Shown: positions 7,870-37,517 of the stretch, piece by piece
Layout of the letters: each line of letters opens with the position of its first letter
Numbering within the stretch: position 1 is the first letter of the stretch
Virus record (IMG/VR): IMGVR_UViG_3300037524_000258
Coordinates: 1-37,712 of that record
Length of the DNA stretch: 37,712 bases
Strand: one strand, 5' to 3'
Origin: a virus
Lineage: Duplodnaviria > Caudoviricetes
Notes under the pieces: model-generated
What the model saw: the letters and a program-made list of their open reading frames with translations, nothing else
Told to the model about the DNA's origin: nothing
Databases searched by the model: none
Made by a program: the position numbers and the translations under genes

Positions 7870-8082
7870 ATGGGCGACCCCAAATTTTGCAAGGATTGTA
7901 AGCATAGCGCGACTACTCCCAACTGCGAATGGAGTTTAATGTGTACACATCCCCGCGTGGTCGGGAAAAGCGCCTGGGCATTGGCGCGGGCTACGTATAA
8001 CGGCACCGAGTGCACTGACGAACGTCGTCTGCGTTGGCCCTCCCCCTGCGGTATGCGCGGCGCGCTGTGGGAGACCAAATGA
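7870..8082 (+). CDS. Small Cys-rich (probably Zn-binding) protein (70 aa)
   Basis: GAGAGG RBS; CKDCKH, CTHP, C..ER and PCG motifs; ATGA overlap with the polymerase. Confidence 0.75.
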   Translation: MGDPKFCKDCKHSATTPNCEWSLMCTHPRVVGKSAWALARATYNGTECTDERRLRWPSPCGMRGALWETK

Positions 8083-9857
8083 GCGAACCAGTAACCCTTG
8101 ACTTTGAGACCGAGGCTATTGAGGACGGGACGGGCATCCCACCCAAGCCGGTCGGTCTTGCGATCTGGATACCAGGCGAAGAACCCAAGTACATGTCTTG
8201 GGGCCACCCTACAGGCAACAACTGCCAAGAGTACGAGGCTAAGCAGGAAGCCCATCGACTGTGGGATAAGGGGGTGCTGTTCCACCACGGCAAGTTCGAC
8301 ATCGGCGTGGCTCGCGAGCACTGGAGCTTCGGTGTCCCCAAGAAGTGGGACGACACCATGTACCAGATCTACCTCCACAACCCCCTCGCCAAGACTGTCT
8401 CCCTCAAGCCTTCGGCTGAGACTCTCCTAGGGATGCCCCCCGATGAGCAGGATGCGGTAGCAGATTACGTCCTCACCCATGGCTTCACCAAATCACGCGC
8501 GAAGGCTGGCGCCTTTATAAGTAAAGTGCCAGCTGAGATAGTGGGGCCATACGCTATCGGCGACGTTGTGCGCACCCGTAGGCTCCACGACCTCCTGTCC
8601 CCCGAGATCATAGAGCGCAAGTGGGAGAATGCCTATCAGCGGGAGCTCAAGCTGGCACCCATCCTGATGGACATGGAGCGCAAGGGCGTCCGCATCGACC
8701 GGCCCCGCCTGTACTTCGACATCCTTCACTATGAGGTGTTCTTCCAGCAGGCCACCGAGTTCATCTGGGCCAAGATCGGCAAGGTCTTCAATGTGGACTC
8801 CGGTCCTGAACTCGCCAAGGCACTCATCGACTCCCCCTTAGTTGACAAAAACAAGCTCGGTCGGACCCCTACGGGCCGAATCTCCACGGCGCGGGCAAGC
8901 CTAGAAGCCGCTGTGCAAGACGCGCAACTCCTCCGGGTACTCCGGTACAGGGGCGCGCTAAAGACGTTGCTAGGGACGTTCATGCGGCCCTGGTATGAGA
9001 TGTCGGAATCGGACGGGCACCTACACCCCTCATGGAACCAGGTGCGGGGCGACGAGTACGGCACGAGAACTGGTCGCCTGTCCTGCTCCCACCCCAACCT
9101 CCAGAACGTGCCCACGGAGTTTGAAGACATCGACATTGACGGCTACCCGCCAATGATCTTCATGCGTCGGTACATCCTGCCCGACGAAGGCCAGGTCATC
9201 GTGGGGGCCGACTACAACGGCCAGGAAATGCGGCTCTTGGCCCATTTTGCCGAGGGCAGGGCGGCGCAGATCTATCGTGACGAGCCCACCGCTGACTTCC
9301 ACCAGATTGCCAAGGACATCCTCTCCAACGAGGCCGGTCTGGACTTCCCCCGCAAGAAGGTCAAGATTGTGGGCTTCAGTCTCATCTACGGGGCAGGGGT
9401 GAACAACCTGGCGGCGCAACTCAAGATGGAAGACCAGATGGGGGAGGTCAGGCGCTTACGGGACACCTACCTGCGCTCCATCCCCGGCCTGCGAGAGTTC
9501 CTGGACGACGTCACCTCAAGACCTGGGGTGCGGACCTGGGGCGGGCGGTGGATCCCTGTCGACAAGCCCGAGGGCACCAACTGGGACTTCAGCTACAAGC
9601 TGGCGAACCACTTGATCCAGGGCTCTGCCGCCGACCAGACCAAGGAGTCCATCATCCGGTACCATGAGCTGGGCCTCAGCGGACGGTTCCTGATGACCGT
9701 ACACGACGAGAATGACTTGTCGTCCCCCATAGATGACCTGAAGGAGAACGTGGAGGGTATCAAATACGCTATGGAGAAGATGGAAGGTTTCGATGTCCCC
9801 TTCGTCGCTGAAGTGGAGACAGGCTACAACTGGCATGAAATGGAGAAGTACGCATGA
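8079..9857 (+). CDS. polA: DNA polymerase family A with 3'-5' exonuclease (592 aa)
   Basis: ExoI LDFET, ExoII HHGKFD, ExoIII YAIGD; TRTGRLSCSHPNLQNVP; motif A ADYNGQEMR; motif B RKKVKIVGFSLIYG; NHLIQGSAAD; motif C TVHDE. Start moved to ATG 8079. Confidence 0.97.
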   Translation: MSEPVTLDFETEAIEDGTGIPPKPVGLAIWIPGEEPKYMSWGHPTGNNCQEYEAKQEAHRLWDKGVLFHHGKFDIGVAREHWSFGVPKKWDDTMYQIYLHNPLAKTVSLKPSAETLLGMPPDEQDAVADYVLTHGFTKSRAKAGAFISKVPAEIVGPYAIGDVVRTRRLHDLLSPEIIERKWENAYQRELKLAPILMDMERKGVRIDRPRLYFDILHYEVFFQQATEFIWAKIGKVFNVDSGPELAKALIDSPLVDKNKLGRTPTGRISTARASLEAAVQDAQLLRVLRYRGALKTLLGTFMRPWYEMSESDGHLHPSWNQVRGDEYGTRTGRLSCSHPNLQNVPTEFEDIDIDGYPPMIFMRRYILPDEGQVIVGADYNGQEMRLLAHFAEGRAAQIYRDEPTADFHQIAKDILSNEAGLDFPRKKVKIVGFSLIYGAGVNNLAAQLKMEDQMGEVRRLRDTYLRSIPGLREFLDDVTSRPGVRTWGGRWIPVDKPEGTNWDFSYKLANHLIQGSAADQTKESIIRYHELGLSGRFLMTVHDENDLSSPIDDLKENVEGIKYAMEKMEGFDVPFVAEVETGYNWHEMEKYA

Positions 9858-10510: not shown

Positions 10511-10844
10511 GCGTGATATACAAGCGAATGTCACGAAAGAGTCAACCTCGCTCGGATTGATTCCGATTAGAATAAACGTGTCGGGCCGGAAGGGCTGGCC
10601 TGACTACGGGTACATGTACATGGGCCGGATAGCGTTCATCGAGTTCAAGCGACCCGGTGAACGCCCCGACCCGCTACAGGCTCACGTTCACAAGTTGTTG
10701 AACGCAGCCCAGATACCCGTATTTGTCGTGAACAACGAGGACTATGGAAACACCTTACTCAAGGAGTGGAAGCATGCTGTTGACGGTGAGCGAAAAGCAC
10801 TGGACGAACTTCGCAGTAAATCTGGTCAAAACAGGAGAAATTGA
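10497..10844 (+). CDS. VRR-NUC domain nuclease
   Basis: E..IQ, GWPDY, AFIEFKRPG, PLQ..VH motifs; usual position between PolA and SNF2 helicase. Confidence 0.88.
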   Translation: MKQLERDIQANVTKESTSLGLIPIRINVSGRKGWPDYGYMYMGRIAFIEFKRPGERPDPLQAHVHKLLNAAQIPVFVVNNEDYGNTLLKEWKHAVDGERKALDELRSKSGQNRRN

Positions 10845-11571
10845 TCCCCCTTACGAGGTCATCTACAAGGGTGGTCTGTCCTACGGGGACGAGTGGGCAG
10901 AGCGGTTCGCCCTCCACTACTTCCTGTTCTATGACCTGGGCGGAGCAGCGCGGTGCGCCAACGACACGACCCCATTCTGGTCCTACGTCACCAACGGGTA
11001 CCATCTGTTCAAACGCGGCAAGTCTCGTCGCCACTTCCGGGGGGAGAACGGGGCCAGAGCCATCCGACTCTTGTTAGAGTACCCCACCGCTGGCGATGTG
11101 TTCGCGGCTCTGTACCAGCCCACCTATGCTGGGATGTACCACCATATCCAGGACAACTTCGACGGGTGTCAAATTGGCGACTACTTCAGGTGGAAGCTCA
11201 TGGACATTTTTGATCGGTGTCTGGGGCGTCACGTCAGTCTCAGCATGCCGGAAGCTCTCAAGTTCCTCCCTGAGACCCCGCGCAAGGGCGCCAAGCAGTT
11301 CTTCCCCAACGATAGCTTGACGACCGCTCTCATGTCTGTAGTGCGAACCATTTCCCACCTGCCCGCGCCCGGCAATCCGAACCGACCTTGTGACCTGCCG
11401 GAAGCCGAGACCATCCTGTGCGCCATGTACGGGGCGCGCAAGGGAACGTACCGCTTTGGCATGGACCTCGACCATCGACGGGAGGAACTCAAAGACTTCC
11501 CTGACCTTGTTGAGTTCCTCCCCACCCACCAAGACTGGAGCCCTTATGACTGCAGTAACCTGGAATCCTAG
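10774..11571 (+). CDS. Amino acid:DNA transferase (AADT, aGPT-Pplase2 family) of thymidine hypermodification (265 aa)
   Basis: Start at ATG 10774 (AAGGAG RBS). Motifs F...LVKTGEIDPPY, RGKSRRHFRG, GDYFRWKLMD and EAETILC...GTY..G.D match my recollection of the family; supported by hmU-pathway neighbours. Confidence 0.8.
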   Translation: MLLTVSEKHWTNFAVNLVKTGEIDPPYEVIYKGGLSYGDEWAERFALHYFLFYDLGGAARCANDTTPFWSYVTNGYHLFKRGKSRRHFRGENGARAIRLLLEYPTAGDVFAALYQPTYAGMYHHIQDNFDGCQIGDYFRWKLMDIFDRCLGRHVSLSMPEALKFLPETPRKGAKQFFPNDSLTTALMSVVRTISHLPAPGNPNRPCDLPEAETILCAMYGARKGTYRFGMDLDHRREELKDFPDLVEFLPTHQDWSPYDCSNLES

Positions 11572-12913
11572 GCCATACCAGGAGACTTCCCTGGCCTGGC
11601 TCATCGAGAAGCCGCACTGCGGCCTTCTCCTGGACCCTGGCCTGGGCAAGACCAGCACAACCTTGGCCGCCATTGACGTCCTCCACGGCGGGGGTCACAT
11701 TCATCACGTGCTGGTGGTCGCCCCTCTCAGGGTGGCCAAGACCGTGTGGCCCGTCGAGGCAGAGAAGTGGCTAGACTTCTCTCACATGTCAGTGTGCGAC
11801 CTGACCGAGCAGGACCGCGACCAACGCATTGCCCGTCTGAAGGAGAAGCATCTTGTGTACGTCATCAACCCTGAGTCGCTACAGCGAGTACTTGAACTCG
11901 ATCCGTGGGCGCTTGGTACCCCCTTTGACATGCTCGTCATCGATGAGAGTACGAAGTTCAAGGACAGTTCGACTCAGCGGTTCAAGGCTCTCAAGAAGCA
12001 TCTACACAAGTTTGGGCGACGAGTCATTCTCACCGGAACCCCTGCTCCAAACGGACTTGCAGACCTTTTTGGACAAATGTACGTTTGCGACATGGGCGAA
12101 AGCCTGGGCAAATACATCACCCATTTCCGGCAGAGGTACATGTACAAGGGGTACGATGGCTTCTACTGGGTCATGGCGCCGGGGTCGGAGGACCAGATAT
12201 ACGACAAGATCAAGTCCAAGCTGCTCCGCATGATGGCCGTGGATCATCTTGAAATGCCGGAGCTTATCGACAACCGCATCGAGATCACCCTCCCCCCGGC
12301 TGTCCAGAAGCAGTACAAGGAACTGGAGCGGGACTTCTTGCTCAAGGTCAACGATGAGACGGTGGCCGTCTTCAATACCGCCGCCCTAGGGGTCAAGCTC
12401 CGGCAGGTGGCCAACGGGTTCATCTACGACGAGAACCATACGGCCATCCCGATCCATGACGAGAAGTTGAAGGCCCTGGAGGAACTCATCGATGAGATGC
12501 AGGGGCGTCCCCTCCTGCTCTGCTACGAGTTCATTGAGGACGCTGTACGTATCCTGAACCACTTCCCCGCCGCCATCAACATTAGCGATGCCAAGGACAC
12601 GTTGGCAGTCATCCAACGGTTCAACGAGGGCAGGATTCCACTCCTGATCGGTCACCCTAAGTCGATGGGTCACGGTCTCAACCTCCAGGAGAAGTGTAAG
12701 GACATTTGCTGGTACGGGATCACCTGGGACCTTGAGCTATACCAGCAAGCTATCGCCCGCGTCTGGCGGCAGGGGCAACCCTCCCCCGTCGTGTCTTGTC
12801 ACCACATCGTGGCCGCCAACACCAAGGACGTAGATGTGGTCAAGGTGCTGGAGAAGAAAGACGCTGACCAGAACAGGCTAAACCTCGCCCTGCGCACCCT
12901 TCCCGCGCTATAA
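11546..12913 (+). CDS. SNF2-family (SF2) helicase (455 aa)
   Basis: PRPYQ, DPGLGKT, VIDEST, LTGTPAPN, GHGLNLQ, QAIARVWRQGQ. Start at ATG 11546 with GGAG RBS. Confidence 0.95.
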   Translation: MTAVTWNPRPYQETSLAWLIEKPHCGLLLDPGLGKTSTTLAAIDVLHGGGHIHHVLVVAPLRVAKTVWPVEAEKWLDFSHMSVCDLTEQDRDQRIARLKEKHLVYVINPESLQRVLELDPWALGTPFDMLVIDESTKFKDSSTQRFKALKKHLHKFGRRVILTGTPAPNGLADLFGQMYVCDMGESLGKYITHFRQRYMYKGYDGFYWVMAPGSEDQIYDKIKSKLLRMMAVDHLEMPELIDNRIEITLPPAVQKQYKELERDFLLKVNDETVAVFNTAALGVKLRQVANGFIYDENHTAIPIHDEKLKALEELIDEMQGRPLLLCYEFIEDAVRILNHFPAAINISDAKDTLAVIQRFNEGRIPLLIGHPKSMGHGLNLQEKCKDICWYGITWDLELYQQAIARVWRQGQPSPVVSCHHIVAANTKDVDVVKVLEKKDADQNRLNLALRTLPAL

Positions 12914-12914
12914 T
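12909..12914 (+). promoter_or_regulatory. Consensus -10 hexamer (TATAAT) at the head of the modification operon
   Basis: GCTATAAT overlaps the helicase stop codon, about 30 nt before ATG 12941; no good -35. Confidence 0.45.
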
Positions 12915-12940
12915 ATAGTTCCCCACCTATAGGAGAACCG

Positions 12941-13387
12941 ATGAGTGACATCAATCTGATCTACCCAGGGCGCGACACCGCTACCCTGGTCAAAACGATG
13001 GACCCCCAGTGGCTCGTGGTCGGCCCCATCCGGGCTTGTATCCACCTGTCCAACGTGTGGCACCTGCTCGACCCCGCAGCCTTGGCCAAGACCAAGGACA
13101 CGGTGGGCGGGAAGGGGGCGATCCACTATAGCCTGAACGGGGCCAACGTGTTCGGTCCCAACGTCCTGGACCACTCCTGGACCAAGTGGGCCGCCACATG
13201 CGTGGAGAACTACTCTTGGCTGCTGTTCTTCGCCCAAGACATGTGCGCCGAGTACATCATCCGGTTCCCTCACGTCAGCAAGCACGGCGTCAGTCGTATG
13301 CTGGAGGCCCTGGAGAACATGCCCGAGTCCCTGCCCGAAGGCGAGTGGACCGAACCCTGGTTTGCCAAAGATGTGGAGGTACAATGA
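12941..13387 (+). CDS. Divergent pyrimidine-dimer DNA glycosylase (DenV/T4 endonuclease V)-like protein (148 aa)
   Basis: AGGAG RBS. The C-terminal pattern H.WTKW....ENYSWL......MCAEY..RF....KH.....L..L...P..LP....T matches the family as recalled; the N-terminal catalytic segment is degenerate. Confidence 0.6.
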   Translation: MSDINLIYPGRDTATLVKTMDPQWLVVGPIRACIHLSNVWHLLDPAALAKTKDTVGGKGAIHYSLNGANVFGPNVLDHSWTKWAATCVENYSWLLFFAQDMCAEYIIRFPHVSKHGVSRMLEALENMPESLPEGEWTEPWFAKDVEVQ

Positions 13388-13935
13388 AGATCATTAAGAT
13401 TCACGGCTGCTCTGGCGCCGGCAAGACCACCGCGGTGCGGGAGTTCATGTCCACCGGTGCGGTCCCCGTCCACGGTTCCAATCTCAAGATTGAGGCGTAC
13501 CATGCCCCGTTCGATACATATGTTCTGGGCTCTTATGAGAACACATGCGGCGGAATGGACACGGTCGGGTCGGCCCAAGAAGTTATGGCCCTACTCGACA
13601 GGTATGCGTCCCTGGGAAATGTCATATTTGAGGGGCTACTCCAAAGCACATACTACGGAGCGATGGGTACACATTCCCGCAAATGGGGCGATGATTACAT
13701 CTATGCGTTCCTCGACACACCCATTGAGCTCTGTTTGGAGCGCGTCGTTGCCAGACGAGCCGCCTCAGGGCGCAACAACAAGTTCAACCCTCAGCTGACG
13801 AGGGACAAGCACGCCACCATTGAAACCCTGAGAAGGAAACTCGAAAACGGCACCCAAATGGGGTTCCGTCACAAGGTGGCGATCCTCAAGCACGATCAGC
13901 CGATGGCGGCACAAATCATGGAGCTTCTGAAGTGA
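13384..13935 (+). CDS. P-loop nucleotide kinase associated with hmU modification clusters (183 aa)
   Basis: Start at ATG 13384 (GGAGG RBS, ATGA overlap); IIKIHGCSGAGKTT, LGSY...CGGMDT, VIFEGLL, FLDTPIELCLERV..RR. Confidence 0.85.
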   Translation: MKIIKIHGCSGAGKTTAVREFMSTGAVPVHGSNLKIEAYHAPFDTYVLGSYENTCGGMDTVGSAQEVMALLDRYASLGNVIFEGLLQSTYYGAMGTHSRKWGDDYIYAFLDTPIELCLERVVARRAASGRNNKFNPQLTRDKHATIETLRRKLENGTQMGFRHKVAILKHDQPMAAQIMELLK

Positions 13936-14393
13936 GCGAGTTCGGCGTCATTAAGACCAAGAAGGTCAGGATGACAGCCATGACCTTCGCCCTCATGATG
14001 AAAGAGCTGGATGCCGGGGCCTCAACTGTAGCCCAACTACAGGAGGCTACCGGCTTGGCCAAGGCCACCTTGTACGATTACCTGCGCGAGCTCAGGAAAG
14101 CTGGGCTGGTGTACGTGGCCGGGTTCGACAGGGCAGCGAACAACTGCCCCATGATCCCTCTGTACGAGTGGGGACCGGGGAAGAAGGACAAGAAGGTCAA
14201 GGCCATTTCCGTTGCGGAGAAGGCGCGCAACTACAGGAGAAACAAACGTGATCGTGAAGCACTTGGACGACTTACTCTATTGGGTCAACGAACGGGATCG
14301 GATGCGGATCAGGAAGCAGGAGGGGACCCGCCCCTACAGTTCCGACCCGATCATGGCCGAGACCAGATGGTGCAACGTGAGGCGCGAGGATGA
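13932..14393 (+). CDS. Winged-helix DNA-binding protein (153 aa)
   Basis: GTGA overlap; TVAQLQEATGLAKATLYDYLRELRKAGLVYV HTH pattern; the 3' end overlaps the next gene by 146 nt. Confidence 0.8.
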   Translation: MSEFGVIKTKKVRMTAMTFALMMKELDAGASTVAQLQEATGLAKATLYDYLRELRKAGLVYVAGFDRAANNCPMIPLYEWGPGKKDKKVKAISVAEKARNYRRNKRDREALGRLTLLGQRTGSDADQEAGGDPPLQFRPDHGRDQMVQREARG

Positions 14394-15075
14394 TCGAGTC
14401 ACTCAGTGGATCCACCAAAATTGGCTCAACCGAGGATGTCACCCGGATGACATGGCCTTCGCCATGTGCGTCGCTCGCATGGTTAACTGGCCAGATACAC
14501 TTGCTGAACTGGGTTTTCCTTACCAATGGAGTCCCACCCACTTCATCGACACTCTTGCCGCCCGTAAGGCGCGTGGTGACAAGGTATGGACGTCAGCATA
14601 CATGATCACCGGGGGCTACTCTGAGGGCGGCGAGAGCAAGGAAGTGATCATCGCTAGGGTGCTGTCGGGGGCACACGCCCGCCTTACCCACCCCAGTACT
14701 CGGATCAACCCGGACGACACACTTGAGGTCGCCTGGAAGAAGATCCAGACTCCTGGGATCGGCACGTTCCTGGCGGCCCAAGTTGTGGCGGACCTGAAGC
14801 ATACCCACCCACTACAACACGCCAAGGACTGGAACTACTGGTGTGCGGTCGGCCCCGGCTCCACGAAGGGGTTGAACTTTCTCCACGACCGCCCTCAGGG
14901 GCACGTCATCAACCAAGCCAATTTCGTCAAGGAGGTCAACGAGGTCAGAGAAGTACTGCGCCACTCGGGGTGGGCATTGGACGCCCAAAACGTCCAGAAC
15001 TGCCTCTGCGAGTTTCACAAGTTCATCAAGATCAAGTACCACGGAGGGCGGGCCAAGTCCCGCTATGTAGCATGA
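14248..15075 (+). CDS. 5-hydroxymethyluridine DNA kinase (5-HMUDK, aGPT-Pplase1 family; 275 aa)
   Basis: GTG 14248 with AGGAG RBS; WVNER, DPIM...RWCNVRREDDRVT, RMVNW, TSAYMI, GIGTFLAAQVVADL, GPGS.KGL, QNCLCEFHK. Confidence 0.88.
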   Translation: MIVKHLDDLLYWVNERDRMRIRKQEGTRPYSSDPIMAETRWCNVRREDDRVTQWIHQNWLNRGCHPDDMAFAMCVARMVNWPDTLAELGFPYQWSPTHFIDTLAARKARGDKVWTSAYMITGGYSEGGESKEVIIARVLSGAHARLTHPSTRINPDDTLEVAWKKIQTPGIGTFLAAQVVADLKHTHPLQHAKDWNYWCAVGPGSTKGLNFLHDRPQGHVINQANFVKEVNEVREVLRHSGWALDAQNVQNCLCEFHKFIKIKYHGGRAKSRYVA

Positions 15076-15794
15076 ACCTTAGCACGCTATCTGTTTGCGG
15101 CTTCAACATTGAGCTGCCCATTGGTTTGCCCGAAGTGCTCGACACCAAGGTGCGGGACTCCTACCAGACCTTCCTGAAGGAAAGCACCAACGACGTTCGC
15201 CGGCATCTTACCTGTGCCGCTACCCTCCTGCCCCCCATGATGAAGGGTCGGGACGGTCAACGGGTGCTCCATTGCTTCGGCGGCTTGGGGGCCACGGCTC
15301 AGATCCTCGATCAATGCGCAAAGGGTCTCAAGCACGAGTTCTGGGAGCGCGATCCTGTGTGTGTCGAATTTTTGTGCAGCCGCTATGACAACGTCCTGCC
15401 CGTAGACGACACGTTCAAGTTGTTCCCCGTCACTGACCTCAGTTCAGTCGACATCCTGCTCATGGACATGTCGGTCGGTACGATCAAGACCAAGGGCGTC
15501 AAGGAAATGTGGGGCAAGATCGCGGAGTGGATGCTGGATCATCCCGATCGGTTCGTGTGGTTCACCGACACGGCATGCCACAAGATCCACCTCAACTGGG
15601 ACCGCTACGGCAAGGACTTCGACACCCCACTACCCGAGCCGACCGCCGAAGCGTATTTGAACTGCTACAGCAGTTGGTTGGAGCGGATCCACGGCATGAC
15701 GATCACCGCCGCTATGCGGGAGGCGGGTGAGATCTACGCCATCGTCCAACGCCATACGGGACACAGCCGGTTCAAGGAAATCCCCTACGTGTAG
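15072..15794 (+). CDS. Atypical class I SAM-dependent methyltransferase-fold protein (240 aa)
   Basis: ATGA overlap with the 5-HMUDK stop; motif I-like VLHCFGGLGATA, acidic end of strand 2 (FWERD), strand 4 DILLMD; no DPPY/NPPY or PC motif. Confidence 0.65.
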   Translation: MNLSTLSVCGFNIELPIGLPEVLDTKVRDSYQTFLKESTNDVRRHLTCAATLLPPMMKGRDGQRVLHCFGGLGATAQILDQCAKGLKHEFWERDPVCVEFLCSRYDNVLPVDDTFKLFPVTDLSSVDILLMDMSVGTIKTKGVKEMWGKIAEWMLDHPDRFVWFTDTACHKIHLNWDRYGKDFDTPLPEPTAEAYLNCYSSWLERIHGMTITAAMREAGEIYAIVQRHTGHSRFKEIPYV

Positions 15795-15840
15795 ACCCTA
15801 TACTAGACGCGCCGGGGCGGTCCCGGCGCTTGTAGGAGAT

Positions 15841-16047
15841 ATGATGGAAATGGGCTTGAAGGGTAACTTGCTGCCCGACAACGAGCAAGAGTTTGCCGAC
15901 AACTTCATTGATATGAAGCACGTTCGGTGCGTTCAGTGTAACTCGGGGTTCGGCCCCCAGAACACCTTCACCCGACTCGGCTGGCGCGAGACGCAGATCA
16001 GCGGCTTCTGCGAGAAGTGCTTCGATGACATGTTCGTGGAGAACTGA
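15841..16047 (+). CDS. Small zinc-finger protein (68 aa)
   Basis: AGGAG RBS; CVQC...RETQISGFCEKCFD; preceded by TATACT (15799-15804). Confidence 0.75.
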   Translation: MMEMGLKGNLLPDNEQEFADNFIDMKHVRCVQCNSGFGPQNTFTRLGWRETQISGFCEKCFDDMFVEN

Positions 16048-16319
16048 TGAGACCCCTCAACAAGATCGCGGCAGAAATCGTGACGTTGTGGAAGGACAAG
16101 CCGCCTTCCCCCAAAGTCGTGTGGTTCTCGCTGCCCTACGTGCGAGCCATGCTCGACCTGACCTCCTGCCGCGACATGTACGGCATGGAGTACGGGGACA
16201 TGATCGTGGCCTACGCGCTCAACAACATGTCGCACTGGCGCGGCGACGACGCCAAGCGCATCAAGTCCGAACTCAAGCAACACCTGGAGGCGTTCAATGT
16301 TAACCATCATCGCGCATAA
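16047..16319 (+). CDS. Conserved phage hypothetical protein (90 aa)
   Basis: TGATG overlap; RPL..IA.EI...W, PY..AM, YG.....IV.Y.L.N...WRG..AKRIK.EL pattern recalled from phage hypotheticals. Confidence 0.8.
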   Translation: MRPLNKIAAEIVTLWKDKPPSPKVVWFSLPYVRAMLDLTSCRDMYGMEYGDMIVAYALNNMSHWRGDDAKRIKSELKQHLEAFNVNHHRA

Positions 16320-17265
16320 CGTCAATGACGCGTACCACGAGGGCCTGTGGAAGATGAAGTCCATGGGGGAGAGGGCTGACAGCCGCAACGGTGGGGTCAC
16401 CCGATTCCCCTACCCGGTGGCTACGACATACCTCAACCCGCAAGAGCGCATGCTGCTCGACGTCAAGCGGGACGCCAACCCGTTCTTCCACATCTTTGAG
16501 GCGATCTGGATGTTGGCGGGCCGCAATGACTCCGAGTTCTTGAAGCGGTTCTCCTCCAACATCGGCCAGTTCGCTGACGGTAACGGCACGTTCCATGGGG
16601 CCTACGGGTTCCGGTGGCGCGAGCACTTCGGGGAAGATCAGCTGGTGTGGATCATGGAACACCTGCGGAAGAACCCCAACACTCGCCGCGCGGTCCTGCA
16701 AATGTACGATCCGGTGGCGGACCAATGGAGCAAGGACGTAGACGCGCCGCTCGACATCCCCTGTAACACCGCGGCATACTTCGGCGTCCGCCAGGGCGCT
16801 CTCAACATGACGGTGACCAACCGCTCCAACGACATGATTTGGGGAGCCTACGGCGCCAATGCCGTACACTTCTCCATGCTCCTGGAGTTCGTGGCTAGGG
16901 GGCTGGGGCTCAAGGTCGGGTCGTACACTCAGTTCAGCAACGACCTCCACATCTATGAGCGTCACTACCCATTGATGGAGTTCCCCGAACCCGTCACAGA
17001 GTACGCCCACCACTGGCGCCACGTTCCGTTGACGGACCCCGAACACTGGGGCGGCGATCTCATTCAGTTTGAGGAGTGGTGCCGGTGGCCTCAAGGGGAG
17101 TACGAAAGCCCCTACATCAACCGGGTGCTGTCCCCCATGCTCCAGTCTTGGTACGCATACAAGGGGAAGAACAAGGAACTGGCACTGGGTCACATCCAGG
17201 CAGTTGACGACGACGCAGTGCGGTACGCCTGCGAGCAATGGCTCCATAGGAGGGCGTGGAAATGA
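16297..17265 (+). CDS. Thymidylate synthase-family enzyme, probably dUMP hydroxymethylase (322 aa)
   Basis: NPFF..EAIWMLAGRND, GAYGFRWR, DQL, RRAVLQMYDP, catalytic DIPCN, RSNDMIWGAYGAN (Asn indicates dUMP specificity), LHIY; C-terminal extension ending ACEQWLHRR; context of hmU-DNA enzymes. Confidence 0.9.
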   Translation: MLTIIAHNVNDAYHEGLWKMKSMGERADSRNGGVTRFPYPVATTYLNPQERMLLDVKRDANPFFHIFEAIWMLAGRNDSEFLKRFSSNIGQFADGNGTFHGAYGFRWREHFGEDQLVWIMEHLRKNPNTRRAVLQMYDPVADQWSKDVDAPLDIPCNTAAYFGVRQGALNMTVTNRSNDMIWGAYGANAVHFSMLLEFVARGLGLKVGSYTQFSNDLHIYERHYPLMEFPEPVTEYAHHWRHVPLTDPEHWGGDLIQFEEWCRWPQGEYESPYINRVLSPMLQSWYAYKGKNKELALGHIQAVDDDAVRYACEQWLHRRAWK

Positions 17266-17768
17266 GGCCAAGTTCAATTCGTCCGTTGTACCGCGCGGGG
17301 CGGATCAAACGCTACCACAGCACTGACTTAGAGGCGCAAACCGTCGCTCAGCACTCTTGGGGCGTCGCCATGATCGTGGCGATGATCTACCCCAGGGGTG
17401 AGGGGTACGCTGGGATGTCCTCCCGTTTGATCCTGGCGGCGCTGACCCACGACCTGGCTGAGATCGAAACCGGGGACATCCCCGCCACCGCTAAGTGGGA
17501 GAGCCGCGAACTCTGCGAGGCTCTCAACGTAATGGAGGGGAAGTTCAACCGCAGGCACGACCTGCCTCAGCCCGCATCGTACAAGGAGGATTCCATTCTC
17601 AAGTGGGCGGACACTTTTGAGTTGTGCCTCTACTCCCACCATCAAATCACCAAAGGCAACGAGTACGCTGTTGAGATCCTCAACAACGGACTGGAGCACC
17701 TTCGCAAACTCGGTTTCCCAACAACAGAAGCAAAGGAATTGTATGACCAGGTCTTCGGCAGACGATAG
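17262..17768 (+). CDS. HD-domain deoxynucleotide phosphohydrolase (YfbR-like; 168 aa)
   Basis: IKRYH, QTVAQHSWGV, ALTHDLAE..TGDIP, KWAD..E; ATGA overlap at 17262. Confidence 0.88.
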   Translation: MRPSSIRPLYRAGRIKRYHSTDLEAQTVAQHSWGVAMIVAMIYPRGEGYAGMSSRLILAALTHDLAEIETGDIPATAKWESRELCEALNVMEGKFNRRHDLPQPASYKEDSILKWADTFELCLYSHHQITKGNEYAVEILNNGLEHLRKLGFPTTEAKELYDQVFGRR

Positions 17769-18018
17769 GCAAGTGGGGGGTAACCACTACAAGCGCGGCG
17801 GGGAGGAGCATTGGACCCGCGTGTATCGCTTGTTCGGCCCCGGCTACTTCATCGGGTGCATCACCAAGTACGTGGAGCGATACCAGTACAAGAACGGCTT
17901 GGAGGACCTTCTCAAGGCTCAGCACTTTCTCGACAAGCTCATCGAGTTGGAAGGTGCGAAGCCGAAGAAGGACGACAGCGAACCGGTGGGAAGGGGGTAC
18001 GTTGACCAAGACCGCTAG
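17743..18018 (+). CDS. DUF3310 / T7 gp1.7-like putative nucleotide kinase (91 aa)
   Basis: Start at ATG 17743 (AAGGA RBS); QVGGNHYK, G.ITKYV.R...KNGLEDL.KA.HFLDKLIE. Confidence 0.85.
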   Translation: MTRSSADDRQVGGNHYKRGGEEHWTRVYRLFGPGYFIGCITKYVERYQYKNGLEDLLKAQHFLDKLIELEGAKPKKDDSEPVGRGYVDQDR

Positions 18019-24264: not shown

Positions 24265-25575
24265 TTAACCCCCAAACATGCTGCCGATTTTGCCGCCCAC
24301 GGCACTGCCGATGGGACCGAAGAACGAGCCACCCAGTGACCCAGCCAACCCAAGCAAGCCCCCCGTCCGGTTGGAGCGGTTCGCCATCTGGGCGTTGTAA
24401 TTGTTCATCGCTGCCTGGTAGTTGTCCTGAGCCGCCCCGTAGATGTTAGCAGGATTGAACCCGGTGCCTTGGGTGTAGCCCTCAAAGCTCGGGTTCTGGA
24501 CCTGGGCTCCGCTCATGAACGCATTGAACTCGTTCAGGGGCATCTGCCGTTGCATCAGCATTTCTTGGAGGGCGCGTTGGCGGTCCTGGACGGAAGCATC
24601 GCGGAGCAGACCCTGCTCGCCCAGCTGAGCTTGACGGAGCATGTTGGCGTAGCTAGAGGCCAGGTCGCCCCGACCCAAAGCCAGACCCTGCTCGTCCAGC
24701 TGAGATTGACGAAGTTGGTTAGCCCAGTCAGACTGTAGATCGCCCCGACCCAAGGACAGTCCTTGCTCCCTCAGCCCTTGTTCGCGCAAAGCGTCCTGGC
24801 GGTTGATCCCGAGGCCCTGCTCCAACAGCCCTTGCTGACGGGACGTCATGCCCCGGTTAAAGATGTCCCCGTAGGCCCCCATGGCCCCTAGCAAGGCTTG
24901 CTGGTTGGCGTCAACATCCCTTTGGTTGAGGGATTGCATCGCCGCTTGCCACGCCGGGGTGCCCTCCGTAATGCCCTGAGCCTTGAGTCGGTTGACCTCT
25001 CGGTCACGACCTTGGGTGAGGGCCGGATTCAACCGACCCATCATGGCGTCTTGGACCTCCTGGACCGCCCCAAAACCGGCCTCAGGCATAGCCCCCAAGG
25101 CGCCAAAGTCGTACTGACCACCCATCTGGGGCAGCTTGCTGAAGTCGTACTGGCCAGGGGCCGCGCCCGGAGCCTGTAGCTTGCTGAAGTCGTACTGGCC
25201 GGGGGCAGTACCCCACTGAGACAGCTGACTCAGGTCGAAGCCCTCGACACCAGGCAACCCCTCCAAGGAGAAGGGGTCCTTGACTGCGTCCTGCGCCGAC
25301 CCGAGCAACCCCAAGCCGGTGTTGGCCAGCCCTAGTTGGGCGGCCTGTTGGGCGTCGAAAATGTCCTGACCGGCCTGACTCAGCTGCTCGATCTGGGTCC
25401 AGTGCCCCGTAACAGGGTCTTGACTCCAGGTCAGAGAACCGTAGGGGTTGTACTGGTCCGCCCGGTTGGCCTGCGTCTGTTCAGCAGCCGCCTGCTTGTT
25501 CAGGTCAGCTTGCTGTTGCGCAAGTGCGCCGTAGTCCGGGGCCGGGGGAGGGGCTGGAGTGGACTTCTTTCCCAT
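24265..25575 (-). CDS. Internal virion / pilot-like ejection protein (436 aa)
   Basis: GAGG RBS; MGKKS.PAPP.APDY...A..Q...N and ANR..QY.PYGSL motifs; Q/G/A-rich; Gly-zipper C-terminus. Confidence 0.75.
   Translation of the reverse strand: MGKKSTPAPPPAPDYGALAQQQADLNKQAAAEQTQANRADQYNPYGSLTWSQDPVTGHWTQIEQLSQAGQDIFDAQQAAQLGLANTGLGLLGSAQDAVKDPFSLEGLPGVEGFDLSQLSQWGTAPGQYDFSKLQAPGAAPGQYDFSKLPQMGGQYDFGALGAMPEAGFGAVQEVQDAMMGRLNPALTQGRDREVNRLKAQGITEGTPAWQAAMQSLNQRDVDANQQALLGAMGAYGDIFNRGMTSRQQGLLEQGLGINRQDALREQGLREQGLSLGRGDLQSDWANQLRQSQLDEQGLALGRGDLASSYANMLRQAQLGEQGLLRDASVQDRQRALQEMLMQRQMPLNEFNAFMSGAQVQNPSFEGYTQGTGFNPANIYGAAQDNYQAAMNNYNAQMANRSNRTGGLLGLAGSLGGSFFGPIGSAVGGKIGSMFGG
25133..25200. repeat. 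23-bp direct repeat (period 45 bp) encoding GQYDFSKL units
   Basis: AGCTTGCTGAAGTCGTACTGGCC at 25133-25155 and 25178-25200. Confidence 0.9.
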
Positions 25576-25996
25576 GAGTACCTCTGTTCAACCACTTACA
25601 ATCCGCCTTACGCATGCTCAAGATGTGTAGCGCCCCATCGGGGTGAGCCCCCTCAAGGATGCACTCGGTCTTGAACCCGAGGCGACGGTTAATGTCCAAC
25701 GCAGTTACGTGGCCCGAAGGCACCTTGCCGATCACTACGTTACACTTGGCCTGGTTGAACGGGTAGTCAAATGCGGCCCAAATGAAATCTCTGCTCATCC
25801 ATCCGGGGGAACCAGCCATGTGCATTTCGCAAGCCGACCCGTTCCACCCGTCATACCCAACGACCCCGAGTATACCCCCCGTCCGGGGGTCTAGTCTACC
25901 CAGGGCAGTAAAGTGGTCCGTAACCACTAGATCCAACTTCTTGCACAACCACCACTTCAGTAGCGATTGGTTGCGCGTTTCGATCAGAAGCGTCAC
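25505..25996 (-). CDS. GNAT-fold protein of the podovirus morphogenesis module (163 aa)
   Basis: GTGA-coupled start at 25996; GVVGY..W....CEMH, W.SR.....AFDYPF.Q..C, RLGF..E..L, M.K..C.WL; sits between the tail and ejection genes. Confidence 0.75.
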   Translation of the reverse strand: MTLLIETRNQSLLKWWLCKKLDLVVTDHFTALGRLDPRTGGILGVVGYDGWNGSACEMHMAGSPGWMSRDFIWAAFDYPFNQAKCNVVIGKVPSGHVTALDINRRLGFKTECILEGAHPDGALHILSMRKADCKWLNRGTHGKEVHSSPSPGPGLRRTCATAS

Positions 25997-26346
25997 GCCC
26001 CACCAGTCGGCTCGTAGTTGGCCCAAGCCGCCAGCATTTGTTGTCGCTGAGCAGCTTGTTGTTGGGCGACTTGTTGTTGTTGTTGTTGACGCAAGGCCTG
26101 AACCTGCGCCGCAGCCTGAGCTTGCTGCTGCTTCTGCATCGCCTGCTGACGCATCGCGTCCCTATTGAACATATGCTGCTGGAGGGCCTGCTGCATATGC
26201 GCAGGAACGCGCTGCGCCATAACAGGAGCCCCTTGTGGGGCGGGCATCCCTTGCGGAGCCCGGTTGGCCATGGCGCGGCTGAAGGCGTCCGAAACGCGGG
26301 AACGCATGCCCCCGAACGAAGGCATACCAGGCTTGGAGCTTTTCAC
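25993..26346 (-). CDS. Gln/Ala/Met-rich low-complexity protein (117 aa)
   Basis: GGAGG RBS; GTGA overlaps at both ends; fills the gap in the late operon exactly. Confidence 0.7.
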   Translation of the reverse strand: MKSSKPGMPSFGGMRSRVSDAFSRAMANRAPQGMPAPQGAPVMAQRVPAHMQQALQQHMFNRDAMRQQAMQKQQQAQAAAQVQALRQQQQQQVAQQQAAQRQQMLAAWANYEPTGGA

Positions 26347-35768: not shown

Positions 35769-37123
35769 AGTATCCTTTGACGGTGACCGGAGCGGTTGAG
35801 AGACGCGTGGTGGGCGAACAGGGTTTCCAGGTCATACTTGTAGTGATGACCGAGCTTGTCGTCGGCTGGGCCCCGACCTTGCGCATCGTTCTTCGTGTAC
35901 TTGTGGAACTTCGGGGCAGCAACAACACACAAGTAACCGAAGGCGTCAGCGTAGTCTGAGCACCAGTCGTGGAGGGGGTGGTCCTTGAACATGAGTAGGT
36001 TTTCATCCCACTCGCGGCGGTAGCCCTTCAGGGCCTCGATCAGGTCATCCGAGCAGTCCGCATCAAAGTGAATGCGGGGGAACATCTTCCGCGTGGCGGC
36101 AATCCGGTCCCTGATCTTGTGGGCGGGGACAATCGTCGGTCGAATGCCTTGTTGCAGAAACTGCTCGACAATGCTTCGGCCAGTTTGTAGGTTCCGAGCC
36201 TTGGCGTCATGTGGGAGGTACACTTCACCCAGCTCACCGGGGAACTGCGTCAAGCGGTCGATGTGGTGAAAGATGTCCTTGCCCTGGGTGGCCTCCACGT
36301 TGACCACCCGCAGCGTCCCGTCCCGGTGTTCTTGCCACCAGATCGCAACCGTCGAATCTGTGAATCCCAGGTCGTAGACCACGTGCGTGGCTAGGTTAGG
36401 GTCATAGAGTTGGTGGGTGGCGGAGCGTTGCTCAGCAAAGACCTGATTGATCTCGTCGGAATAGATGGCCCCCTTCAGAGCAGCGTCAAACGAGCACTCG
36501 TACTCCTGAGCGTACTCATCCGGGTCCATGTCCTTTCTGAGCTCATCGAGTTCAGAAGTGGGGATTATTTGGGACTCTGAGGCCTTGAGGGTGAGGGAGA
36601 ACCAATCCTTGTCCGTTTCACTCTGGCGGTGGGTCTTGTGGAACAGGTTCTTGCCTCGTGGGGTGGAGGCAAACACCCACCAGCCGTTGCGGTCCGACAG
36701 GGCGGGGCGGATAATGGTGGGGTACGTCGATGGGCGGAACAGGGCATACTCGTCACCCACTCCCCCGTCCAAGTACATGCCCCGCAAGGAGTCTGGGTTG
36801 TCCGCCCCTAGACAGTAGATGGTCCTGTCCCCATGAAGGGTGAGCTTCAGTTCACTTTCAGACGGGGGCTTGCTCAGGTACGGCTCAGCGTAGTCCTTCA
36901 GGTACGCCCACGCGATGCGTTTGGCTTGAGTGTACGTCGGACCAACATAAGCCAACTGCGGCTTGCGGAGGGGGCACTGCAGGGCACCAACAATCACGTC
37001 ATTGACTAAGGCCACCGTCTTGCCGGCCCGCCGATGTGTGTTTAGGGACGCCCACCGTTGGCGTCGGTTGTGGAAGGGGAGAAATTGGGGGCGGGGGACA
37101 TACTCCAGGGTCTTAGTCGCCAT
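35765..37123 (-). CDS. terL: Terminase large subunit (452 aa)
   Basis: Start at ATG 37123; Walker A HRRAGKT, GPTYTQAK, GADNPDSLRG, Walker B VGDEYA, STPRG, QEYECSF; nuclease YDLG..DST and HDWCSDYADAFGY. Confidence 0.96.
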   Translation of the reverse strand: MATKTLEYVPRPQFLPFHNRRQRWASLNTHRRAGKTVALVNDVIVGALQCPLRKPQLAYVGPTYTQAKRIAWAYLKDYAEPYLSKPPSESELKLTLHGDRTIYCLGADNPDSLRGMYLDGGVGDEYALFRPSTYPTIIRPALSDRNGWWVFASTPRGKNLFHKTHRQSETDKDWFSLTLKASESQIIPTSELDELRKDMDPDEYAQEYECSFDAALKGAIYSDEINQVFAEQRSATHQLYDPNLATHVVYDLGFTDSTVAIWWQEHRDGTLRVVNVEATQGKDIFHHIDRLTQFPGELGEVYLPHDAKARNLQTGRSIVEQFLQQGIRPTIVPAHKIRDRIAATRKMFPRIHFDADCSDDLIEALKGYRREWDENLLMFKDHPLHDWCSDYADAFGYLCVVAAPKFHKYTKNDAQGRGPADDKLGHHYKYDLETLFAHHASLNRSGHRQRIL

Positions 37124-37517
37124 TCTCGATGACCTCCCCAGAGTTGGTTTGGTACGAGAGACGCTCAGGGGTGGCCCATGAGATGGAGACGTTGATGTCC
37201 TTCTTCTCATGGATCTCTGCCGTGGCGGGCACGAGCTTGCTGTAGAGGGTGTAGAACTTGGTCGGGTTTTGGTCAGCCCACAGGGCAAGGCGGGGGACAC
37301 CACCAATCATGTCGAAGGCCTGCTGAAACGCTTTCGCTGCCTTGCTATCCTTCAGCACGGGCGGGAGGGAGGCACCAATCAGTCCCCTTTCAAGTAACCG
37401 CGTCAGTTCGGGGGACATCTGCAAGTCAAGTTGAGTCATGACCCCTGTGGGGTCCGCATCAATTTGATCTAGCAAGCCCTGGAGGGCAGGGTCACGTTCT
37501 GGGGGGTGCAATTTCAT
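37113..37517 (-). CDS. terS: Terminase small subunit (134 aa)
   Basis: Directly upstream of and overlapping terL; AF..IGG...L..WA..NP..FY.LY.KL.P pattern. Confidence 0.7.
   Translation of the reverse strand: MKLHPPERDPALQGLLDQIDADPTGVMTQLDLQMSPELTRLLERGLIGASLPPVLKDSKAAKAFQQAFDMIGGVPRLALWADQNPTKFYTLYSKLVPATAEIHEKKDINVSISWATPERLSYQTNSGEVIENGD

What the first reader, a model, noticed from the sequence alone, without database searches (positions are those of the whole stretch)
10774..18018. Thymidine-hypermodification system with a non-canonical tailoring enzyme set: candidate new modified base
Seen: genes for dUMP hydroxymethylase (16297), HD phosphohydrolase (17262), DUF3310 (17743), P-loop kinase (13384), 5-HMUDK (14248) and AADT (10774), most of them tightly coupled. 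Established: in phages such as M6, ViI, PhiW-14 and PaMx11, hmU replaces T, is phosphorylated on DNA by 5-HMUDK, and AADT swaps the phosphate for an amino acid. PLP, radical-SAM, flavin or acetyltransferase enzymes then tailor the adduct. Seen: none of those tailoring enzymes is recognisable in this cluster; a SAM-fold gene and a DenV-like gene are present instead. Inference: the end product differs from the described hypermodified thymidines. The pathway sits in a 38-kb podovirus-type genome, smaller than the characterised carriers I know.
Basis: partly seen in the sequence, partly recalled or inferred. Interest (0 to 1): 0.92.

Follow-up and report, generated by a model that had tools for sequence, protein, structure and literature searches.

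The report
Methyltransferase-tailored phage thymine hypermodification cluster
An uncultured small phage carries the known genes for decorating thymine in its DNA plus an unstudied methyltransferase-fold gene that recurs beside such genes in several unrelated phage types, so it likely makes a methylated thymine derivative that has not been described chemically.

Summary
The cluster is real, but two labels need fixing. 13384 is the 5-HMUDK (homologue of M6 gp54). 14248 is aGPT-Pplase1 (homologue of M6 gp55; function unshown). 10774 is a true AADT/Pplase2 (TM 0.79 to PaMx11 gp46; Cys, Glu, Thr kept). It groups with the diamine transferases (99/89), lacks the glycine-binding Lys, and matches no mapped donor pocket. 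Missing PLP/rSAM/FAD/GNAT genes prove nothing alone, because putT and dapT need none. The stronger evidence is 15072, a class I SAM-fold family with no Pfam model. It lies within 3 kb of hypermodification genes in 33 of 36 loci found through it. It is present in 21 of 28 podovirus relatives, which have no known tailoring gene. It also sits in M6-type clusters (cultured cyanophage Pam3; once in a slot where a sister phage has an acetyltransferase) and in TET-AADT-kinase clusters. Best reading, inferred: hmU, then phospho-hmU, then an amine adduct, then N-methylation. The DenV-like gene lacks the catalytic Glu and is probably not a tailoring enzyme. Small size is not unique (P26218, 36 kb). The scan's earlier notes hold no look-alike of this DNA, only different methyltransferase-hmU clusters. 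No chemistry was tested.

The parts
10774..11571 (+). AADT / aGPT-Pplase2 (265 aa); non-glycine branch, pocket D24 S84 K141 E212 T213 C216 A217 G220 Y226 D231
   Evidence: phrog_6364 E 2e-33; PDB 8z2m E 2.6e-7; AF2 pLDDT 93, Foldseek TM 0.79; residues; tree
11546..12913 (+). SNF2-type helicase lying between AADT and the rest of the cluster; not a modification gene as far as tested
   Evidence: PF00176 E 7e-20; start; same order in relatives
12910..12915 (+). TATAAT -10-like hexamer ahead of the DenV-kinase-HTH-Pplase1-MTase run (promoter inferred)
   Evidence: sequence; not listed by the sigma-70 scan
12941..13387 (+). DenV-fold protein, probably not an active glycosylase (GPIR where L010 has MGIE)
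   Evidence: Atlas hits to PF03013 clusters, 0.92 and TM 0.76; alignment; role of the Glu recalled from T4 endonuclease V
13384..13935 (+). 5-hmdU DNA kinase (5-HMUDK), P-loop, 183 aa
   Evidence: PF18748 27.6 bits; 32% to M6 gp54 and PaMx11 gp49
13932..14393 (+). small winged-HTH protein, overlaps the Pplase1 start, found in few relatives
   Evidence: HTH_5 E 6e-6
14248..15075 (+). aGPT-Pplase1 (PF18723), function not shown; C254, E255 and K258 invariant in 38 sequences
   Evidence: E 2e-34; homologue of M6 gp55
15072..15794 (+). class I SAM-dependent methyltransferase-fold protein of an unmodelled, hypermodification-linked family (240 aa); candidate tailoring enzyme
   Evidence: no Pfam/PHROG/NCBIfam hit; AF2 pLDDT 95; Trm1 Z 14.8, rmsd 3.4, 210 aligned; 79 homologues; contexts
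15799..15804 (+). TATACT -10-like hexamer just after the MTase stop; inferred start of the pre-replicative run
   Evidence: 8 TATACT in the window against 2.3 expected, motif picked by eye first; similar hexamer after the MTase in several relatives
15841..16047 (+). 68-aa ORF with two CxxC pairs, unknown
   Evidence: sequence; no family; homologues in L002 and L030-L032
16047..16319 (+). 90-aa conserved ORF of unknown function
   Evidence: phrog_13953 E 4e-17; common before TS in relatives
16297..17265 (+). dUMP hydroxymethylase (inferred), thymidylate-synthase fold, C156 and N188
   Evidence: phrog_5131 E 9e-101; 46% to M6 gp58, 43% to PaMx11 gp51; Asn where CMP hydroxymethylase has Asp
17262..17768 (+). 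HD 5'-deoxynucleotidase-like protein (dTMP removal inferred)
   Evidence: PF12917 E 6e-13
17743..18018 (+). DUF3310 protein
   Evidence: PF11753 E 3e-7; same slot in M6 and PaMx11

Best explanation
The phage likely replaces thymine with 5-hydroxymethyluracil, phosphorylates it in DNA, swaps the phosphate for a non-glycine amine, and then likely N-methylates that amine with the SAM-fold enzyme 15072, which would give an undescribed methylated thymidine.

Steps:
(1) 16297 makes hmdUMP, 17262 drains dTMP and the phage PolA incorporates hmdU. Inferred from homology to M6/PaMx11.
(2) 13384 makes 5-PmdU in DNA. Inferred from homology to the demonstrated kinases.
(3) 10774 uses C216 and the E212/T213 metal site to eliminate phosphate and add a donor. 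The machinery is shown to be conserved; the donor is unknown. A diamine or polyamine is my best guess (about 0.4), with its far amine filling the space left by Lys-to-Ala217, next to Y226 and D231.
(4) 15072 adds one or more methyl groups to the exposed amine on DNA. Fold and gene context are shown; the substrate is inferred.
Pplase1 (14248) handles the remaining hmU or is a second transferase (not shown). The DenV-fold protein is accessory.
For: AADT branch and pocket:
- Careful tree of 87 AADTs: the 34 podovirus sequences and 3 diamine-type ones form one group (99/89), apart from the 45 Lys-bearing glycine-type ones (100/99).
- None of 28 distinct podovirus AADTs has Lys at the YuA K248 position (M13, A7, G4, L2, S1, T1).

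Tailoring genes by branch (AADT-seeded loci):
- Podovirus loci: MTase in 21 of 28; PLP/rSAM/FAD/GNAT in 0 of 28.
- Lys-type loci: known tailoring genes in 31 of 40, MTase in 2 of 40. One search printed 30 of 39 and 1 of 39; L094 was misfiled by my regex and has Lys.

Context of the MTase family:
- Of 36 distinct loci found through the MTase itself, 33 have a kinase, AADT, Pplase1 or TS gene within 3 kb.
- It occurs in at least four genome architectures: this podovirus group (three different slots); Pam3 gp39 and L113 in PLP+rSAM clusters; L091/L094 right after the PLP gene, where sister locus L099 has a GNAT and L097 an amidoligase nearby; and T4-like TET_JBP-MTase-AADT-kinase with no Pplase1 in the 20-kb locus.
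- The TET context argues against a nucleotide-pool role.
- Top fold matches are RNA amine N-methyltransferases: Trm1 Z 14.8, RlmKL 14.4, RsmD-like 13.7.
- 34 invariant columns in 73 sequences.
Against: - No activity was tested.
- The pocket fails the mapped diamine signature: G227/H230/D238 read A/G/Y here, and D238Y killed diamine transfer in SH-Ab 15599 (PMC13458397).
- 7 of 28 relatives have no MTase in the DNA held, so it is dispensable.
- Most of the 36 loci belong to one lineage, and one is a copy of this genome.
- The fold ranks are near ties among many class I enzymes, and Foldseek ranked sugar C-methyltransferases first.
- This subclade has His67 where 92% of distant members have Glu in motif I, which could mean another cofactor.
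- In its own subclade the gene nearly always follows Pplase1, not AADT.
- The match between MTase subtype and AADT residue 226 (His in 15 of 15 against 2 of 12) rests on only 2 independent pairs, p 0.5.
- The family was seen in none of the 14 FAD-lyase loci, whose product also has a free amine.
Confidence: 0.45

Rival explanations
1. 15072 works with Pplase1, or alone, on hmU itself and would make 5-methoxymethyl-dU at sites the AADT does not take.
For: 15072 overlaps the Pplase1 stop codon. It follows Pplase1 in all loci of its subclade that show both genes except L069. Pplase1 keeps an invariant Cys-Glu and has no shown function. Earlier scan notes propose hmU methylation by other methyltransferase families (unchecked leads). 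PMC13229309 lists O-methyltransferases near T-dioxygenases.
Against: The distant subclade sits before the kinase, and in T4-like loci it lies between TET and AADT with no Pplase1 held. Every full-length locus with the MTase also has AADT and kinase, except L114, where they are about 26 kb away on the same contig.
Confidence: 0.15
2. The end product is a known base (putT or dapT) or just an unmethylated new adduct, and the methyltransferase is a passenger or acts elsewhere.
For: The AADT groups with PhiW-14 gp109 and SH-Ab 15599 Pplase2, whose products need no tailoring. 7 of 28 relatives lack the MTase.
Against: The family has not been seen outside such clusters (33 of 36 loci; two misses end inside the gene, one has 574 bases after it). 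It moves between slots inside the cluster. The AADT is only 27% identical to the diamine enzymes and differs at their selectivity residues.
Confidence: 0.13
3. 15072 transfers another part of a SAM-type cofactor (aminopropyl from decarboxylated SAM, aminocarboxypropyl, or carboxymethyl), extending the adduct instead of methylating it.
For: His67 replaces the motif I acid in this subclade. TYW2, a putative spermidine synthase, nicotianamine synthase and CmoA appear among the fold hits. A phage carboxymethyltransferase is in print (PMC12783734, search listing only).
Against: Those hits rank below or tie with ordinary methyltransferases. His-type and Glu-type subclades replace each other beside the same AADT type (L057 and L069 against L051 and others), which suggests one function.
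Confidence: 0.12
4. 15072 methylates a free host amine first, and the AADT then transfers the ready-made methylated donor.
For: Single small domain, pI 5.8, no extra DNA-binding domain. AADT pocket unlike the mapped ones.
Against: It accompanies three different AADT branches, including glycine-type ones that keep the Lys. The AADT itself has pI 6.2, so charge says little.
Confidence: 0.1

Closest known systems
Delftia phage PhiW-14 putT and Acinetobacter phage SH-Ab 15599 dapT pathways (dUMP hydroxymethylase, 5-HMUDK, diamine-transferring Pplase2; PMC8989533, PMC13458397)
   Same: Same core enzymes; AADT in the same branch; catalytic Cys and metal residues kept; no PLP/rSAM/FAD step.
   Different: 27% identity; pocket A217/G220/Y226 instead of G/H/D; extra SAM-fold gene; about 38-kb podovirus-type genome against 143-157 kb; no dCMP deaminase or dTTPase recognised.
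Pseudomonas phages M6/YuA (5-NedU) and PaMx11 (5-AcNmdU)
   Same: Kinase-Pplase1-TS-HD-DUF3310 order; TS 43-46% and kinase 32% identical.
   Different: Their AADT has the glycine-binding Lys; tailoring is by PLP+rSAM or FAD+GNAT; no 15072 homologue by tblastn or broad profile.
Rhodoferax phage P26218 (cultured podovirus, 36,315 bp; PMC4657236)
   Same: Similar size; PolA-VRR-SNF2 neighbourhood with AADT, kinase, TS, HD and DUF3310; best cultured hit of 10774 (31%).
   Different: No Pplase1 and no 15072 homologue; separate AADT subgroup; I saw no chemical analysis of its DNA in the passages read.
Pseudanabaena phage Pam3 gp39 (cultured cyanophage)
   Same: Only cultured carrier found of the 15072 family, upstream of PLP, rSAM, Pplase2, kinase, Pplase1 and TS genes.
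   Different: Distant subclade; M6-type glycine pathway; three unrelated-looking genes separate it from the PLP gene; annotated as hypothetical.
tRNA MnmC2 (nm5U to mnm5U; recalled) and Trm1/RsmD-type amine methyltransferases
   Same: Would be the DNA counterpart: SAM methylation of an amine hanging from C5 of uracil; class I fold.
   Different: 10-12% identity to the fold hits; MnmC was not among the rows shown; analogy only.

Membership tests
AADT / aGPT-Pplase2 (10774) | Pplase2 fold | tested here: met
   Foldseek TM 0.79, E 5e-10 to PaMx11 gp46; next hit E 0.34
AADT / aGPT-Pplase2 (10774) | catalytic Cys and metal ligands Glu, Thr, Asp | tested here: met
   C216, E212, T213 invariant, D24 kept (roles from PMC13458397)
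AADT / aGPT-Pplase2 (10774) | Pfam PF18724 gathering score | tested here: not met
   20 bits against 26.2; many close homologues carry the precomputed domain
AADT / aGPT-Pplase2 (10774) | group transfer to 5-PmdU DNA | not testable with these tools
   needs an assay
glycine:DNA transferase (M6/YuA/PaMx11) | E96, K159, K248, Y257, D262 pocket | tested here: not met
   S84, K141, A217, Y226, D231: E96 and K248 missing
diamine:DNA transferase (SH-Ab 15599, PhiW-14) | G227, H230, D238, D243 pocket | tested here: not met
   A217, G220, Y226, D231: only the last is kept; same tree branch, however
serine:DNA transferase (ViI type) | sequence kinship to Kuttervirus Pplase2 | tested here: not met
   15% to the phage Guerrero protein; no Salmonella phage among 42 tblastn hits; ViI gp247 itself not fetched
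5-HMUDK (13384) | P-loop kinase homologous to demonstrated 5-HMUDKs | tested here: met
   PF18748 27.6 bits, cut-off 27; hits M6 gp54 and PaMx11 gp49
   homologue of M6 gp55, which was dispensable for GlyT formation
dUMP hydroxymethylase (16297) | TS fold, catalytic Cys, dUMP-type Asn, kinship to the M6/PaMx11 enzymes | tested here: met
   role of the Asn recalled
dUMP hydroxymethylase (16297) | hydroxymethyl rather than methyl product | not testable with these tools
   inferred from the neighbouring kinase
class I SAM-dependent methyltransferase (15072) | Rossmann-like SAM fold with Gly-rich motif I and acidic motif II | tested here: met
   HCFGGLG (67-73), E92/D94, D113, D132
class I SAM-dependent methyltransferase (15072) | acidic residue at the end of strand 1 | tested here: inconclusive
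   His67 in 99% of near homologues, Glu/Asp in 99% of distant ones
class I SAM-dependent methyltransferase (15072) | methyl transfer and its acceptor | not testable with these tools
   needs an assay
DenV pyrimidine-dimer glycosylase (12941) | DenV fold | tested here: met
   homologues hit PF03013 weakly
DenV pyrimidine-dimer glycosylase (12941) | catalytic Glu in the first helix (recalled) | tested here: not met
   Arg in this protein and 8 of 11 aligned homologues; Glu in L010 and L071

The most novel reading that the evidence does not exclude
15072 founds a fifth class of thymidine-tailoring enzyme: a DNA amine methyltransferase that phages add to any amine-bearing thymidine adduct. Together with an AADT of new donor specificity it makes an undescribed, possibly multiply methylated and permanently charged, base in a widespread group of small podoviruses, and a methylated 5-NedU in the cultured phage Pam3.
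Probability: 0.45. Interest if true: 0.78.

Novelty: new variant of a known kind. Interest (0 to 1): 0.62.

Why it matters
The tailoring enzymes shown so far for thymidine hypermodification are PLP decarboxylases, radical-SAM isomerases, flavin lyases and acetyltransferases (PMC8989533). A SAM methyltransferase acting on the adduct would add a class, parallel tRNA mnm5U synthesis, and give a simple way to label DNA with SAM analogues. The family has 236 clusters at 50% identity and no Pfam model, so annotation misses it. It can be tested now: three small genes in vitro, or LC-MS of Pam3 and P26218 virion DNA. The field already expects more such bases, so this would extend a known system rather than overturn anything.

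Tried and rejected
- 14248 as the kinase: rejected.
- DenV-like gene as tailoring enzyme: rejected as unlikely.
- Acyl-CoA N-acyltransferase-like ORF 25505-26026 (phrog_4470) as the missing acetyltransferase: set aside because it lies on the other strand among virion genes; not tested further.
- 15072 against cultured phages: no match. Against prokaryote genomes: 0 of 109 pattern matches confirmed.
- Complex prediction Pplase1 + 15072: no answer, score 0.00, neither for nor against binding.
- Co-evolution of MTase subtype and AADT residue 226: only 2 independent pairs, not significant. AU test of window + glycine AADTs did not finish.
- Dinucleotide odds: TA low (0.60), TG 1.14, not informative.
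- The sigma-70 scan did not list the hexamers at 12910 and 15799.
- Loci for three of the four alignments of distant MTases could not be searched. Contexts of distant members therefore come from one subcluster, one single protein and one locus-derived alignment; most of the 236 clusters have no context here.
- Iyer et al. 2013 is not held, so I could not check whether it lists this methyltransferase.
- Literature searches that found no methyltransferase-tailored hypermodified thymidine. Subscription papers are mostly not covered.
Full report
Setting. The window is a nearly whole phage genome: the longest contig holding these proteins is 38,434 bases. Replication genes lie on the + strand (PolA, PD-(D/E)XK and VRR nucleases, SNF2 helicase). 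Terminase, portal, capsid and adaptor genes lie on the - strand. Podovirus type is inferred from these families. Two runs not marked as a possible source hold half or more of the region's words; both are wetland metagenomes of one year and may be one campaign.

Observation. One label is wrong. PMC8989533 Table 1 lists the demonstrated 5-HMUDKs as P-loop kinases, M6 gp54 and PaMx11 gp49 among them. These are the tblastn hits of 13384. 14248 matches PF18723 and M6 gp55, a protein not needed to make GlyT. PMC5889632 Table 3 shows SP10 with a Pplase1 domain fused to its kinase and no Pplase2, so Pplase1 may itself be a transferase; that is my inference. 10774 is under the Pfam cut-off but has the Pplase2 fold (AF2 pLDDT 93; TM 0.79 to PaMx11 gp46) and keeps C216, E212, T213 and D24. 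16297 is 46% identical to M6 gp58 and has Asn188 where a CMP hydroxymethylase has Asp.

PhiW-14 and SH-Ab 15599 make putT and dapT with kinase and Pplase2 alone (PMC13458397), and both are among the best cultured hits of 10774. In a careful tree of 87 distinct AADTs, 34 podovirus sequences and 3 diamine-type ones form one group (99/89), separate from 45 Lys-bearing glycine-type sequences (100/99). ViI-type sequences were not in this tree. A small carrier is also already cultured: P26218, 36.3 kb, has AADT, kinase, TS and HD but neither Pplase1 nor the methyltransferase.

The AADT donor. Mapped on the residues of PMC13458397, the window has S84, K141, A217, G220, Y226 and D231. Glycine transferases have E/K/K/S/Y/D at these places; the SH-Ab 15599 enzyme has A/K/G/H/D/D. 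Loss of the carboxylate-binding Lys argues against glycine. Tyr at the D238 place argues against the mapped diamine mode, since D238Y was dead in that enzyme. My reading is that Ala217 leaves room for a donor whose far amine takes the place of the Lys side chain beside Y226 and D231. This is inference. Across 28 distinct relatives the position is M13, A7, G4, L2, S1, T1, so the donor may vary within the group.

The methyltransferase. 15072 has no Pfam, PHROG or NCBIfam hit. It has 79 homologues including itself, 34 invariant columns in 73 sequences and 236 clusters in a full profile search. Its model (pLDDT 95) is a class I SAM fold. VIA ranks Trm1 (Z 14.8, rmsd 3.4, 210 aligned), RlmKL (14.4) and an RsmD-like protein (13.7) first, in near ties. 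Foldseek ranks sugar C-methyltransferases first. The fold therefore names no substrate. A broader profile showed that a 220-aa gene lying before the kinase in other relatives is the same family (hhalign 96.7%, E 4.5e-10).

Gene context, counted two ways. (a) Loci found through the methyltransferase: 33 of 36 distinct ones have a kinase, AADT, Pplase1 or TS gene within 3 kb. Two misses end inside the gene; the third has those genes about 26 kb away on the same contig. PMC8989533 puts kinase-bearing contigs at 5-8 per 10,000. Most of the 36 are one lineage and one is a copy of this genome. (b) Loci found through the AADT: 21 of 28 podovirus loci have the methyltransferase and 0 of 28 a PLP, rSAM, FAD or GNAT gene; 31 of 40 Lys-type loci have a known tailoring gene and 2 of 40 the methyltransferase (with L094 moved as explained under evidence). 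The known-gene test used profiles grown from the M6 and PaMx11 enzymes. A Pfam scan covered 73 picked ORFs, about 55 of them from the 213 unassigned ones. Loci reach at most 10 kb each side and several are cut short.

Independent architectures carry more weight than these counts. The family occurs in Pam3 gp39, upstream of an M6-type cluster; this is the only cultured carrier found. It occurs between PLP and rSAM genes in L113, and right after the PLP gene in L091 and L094, where the sister locus L099 has a GNAT. It also occurs in T4-like loci as TET_JBP, methyltransferase, ViI-branch AADT, P-loop kinase, with no Pplase1 held. Known products of those branches (5-NedU, O-SerT) expose a free amine. 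That shared feature and the swap with an acetyltransferase are why I favour N-methylation of the adduct.

Against this: 7 of 28 relatives lack the gene; this subclade has His67 in motif I and clings to Pplase1; and none of the 14 FAD-lyase loci carries the family. The link between methyltransferase subtype and AADT residue 226 does not survive correction for kinship.

Anatomy. A TATACT hexamer occurs 8 times against 2.3 expected; I picked the motif by eye first, so the test is lenient. One copy lies just after the 15072 stop and a TATAAT lies before 12941. If these are promoters, 15072 closes a unit with the kinase and Pplase1, apart from the TS-HD unit. This is inferred. 12941 has the DenV fold, but Arg replaces the Glu kept in L010 and L071 (catalytic role recalled), and 10 of 28 relatives lack it.

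What was read. PMC8989533: abstract, introduction, results parts 1-2 of 4, section 21, discussion, passages. PMC13458397: abstract, results parts 1-3 of 4, passages; 'methyltransferase' and 'Pplase1' do not occur in its main text. Passages only: PMC5889632, PMC9599517, PMC13229309, PMC11472151, PMC9837993, PMC4657236. Listing only: PMC12783734. No supplements or figures were read; Fig. 2 of PMC8989533 and Dataset S10 of PMC13229309 could already show this family unnamed. Searches found no methyltransferase-tailored hypermodified thymidine. Iyer et al. 2013 is not held.

Verdict. A real hmU-based hypermodification cluster, a new variant of a known kind. I put about 0.9 on an active pathway, about 0.8 on the SAM-fold enzyme taking part, and 0.45 on N-methylation of the DNA-bound amine adduct.

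Noticed in passing
L013:9773-13265 (Rhodoferax phage P26218): Cultured podovirus with a minimal AADT-kinase-TS-HD-DUF3310 cluster, no Pplase1, and a distinct pocket (Val at the Lys place, Arg at the last Asp): a separate candidate new base that can be tested on virions.
   Followed up: partly
L112:8604-9230 (Pam3 gp39): Only cultured member found of the 15072 family, near an M6-type cluster; annotated as hypothetical.
   Followed up: partly
L117:8643-12476, L115: T4-like phages with TET_JBP, methyltransferase, ViI-branch AADT and P-loop kinase 3 in a row; a glycosyltransferase lies upstream.
   Followed up: partly
L108:13044-13748: FkbM-family methyltransferase between kinase and Pplase1 in an FAD-type cluster; not hit by the 15072 family profile, so a second methyltransferase family in such clusters.
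   Followed up: partly
L017:7001-7564 and other RefSeq records: 5-HMUDK genes of M6-like phages and P26218 are annotated 'terminase small subunit' (also phrog_800), a spreading misannotation.
   Followed up: no
window 8079-9857: PolA of 592 aa appears to start directly with the exonuclease domain, shorter than M6 PolA; a UDG-fused PolA family of T-modified phages is in print (listing), fusion not tested here.
   Followed up: no
window 25505-26026 (-) and 37113-37517 (-): Acyl-CoA N-acyltransferase-like ORF among virion genes (phrog_4470, E 1e-32) and a weak NAT_N hit next to the terminase.
   Followed up: no
window 3940, 5829, 6447, 15799, 18128 (+); 25874, 32451, 37531 (-): TATACT hexamers in the direction of the neighbouring genes, mostly intergenic; likely phage promoters without a clear -35.
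   Followed up: partly
L032:8692-9831; L070:15538-17071; L068:12918-14843; L078:12367-13011: Other accessory genes inside or beside hmU clusters: CotH kinase; hexapeptide acyltransferase plus Rieske oxygenase; TET-associated glycosyltransferase plus radical SAM/SPASM; 2OG-Fe oxygenase.
   Followed up: no
L091:7588-9987: Radical-SAM isomerase homologue carrying an intein.
   Followed up: no
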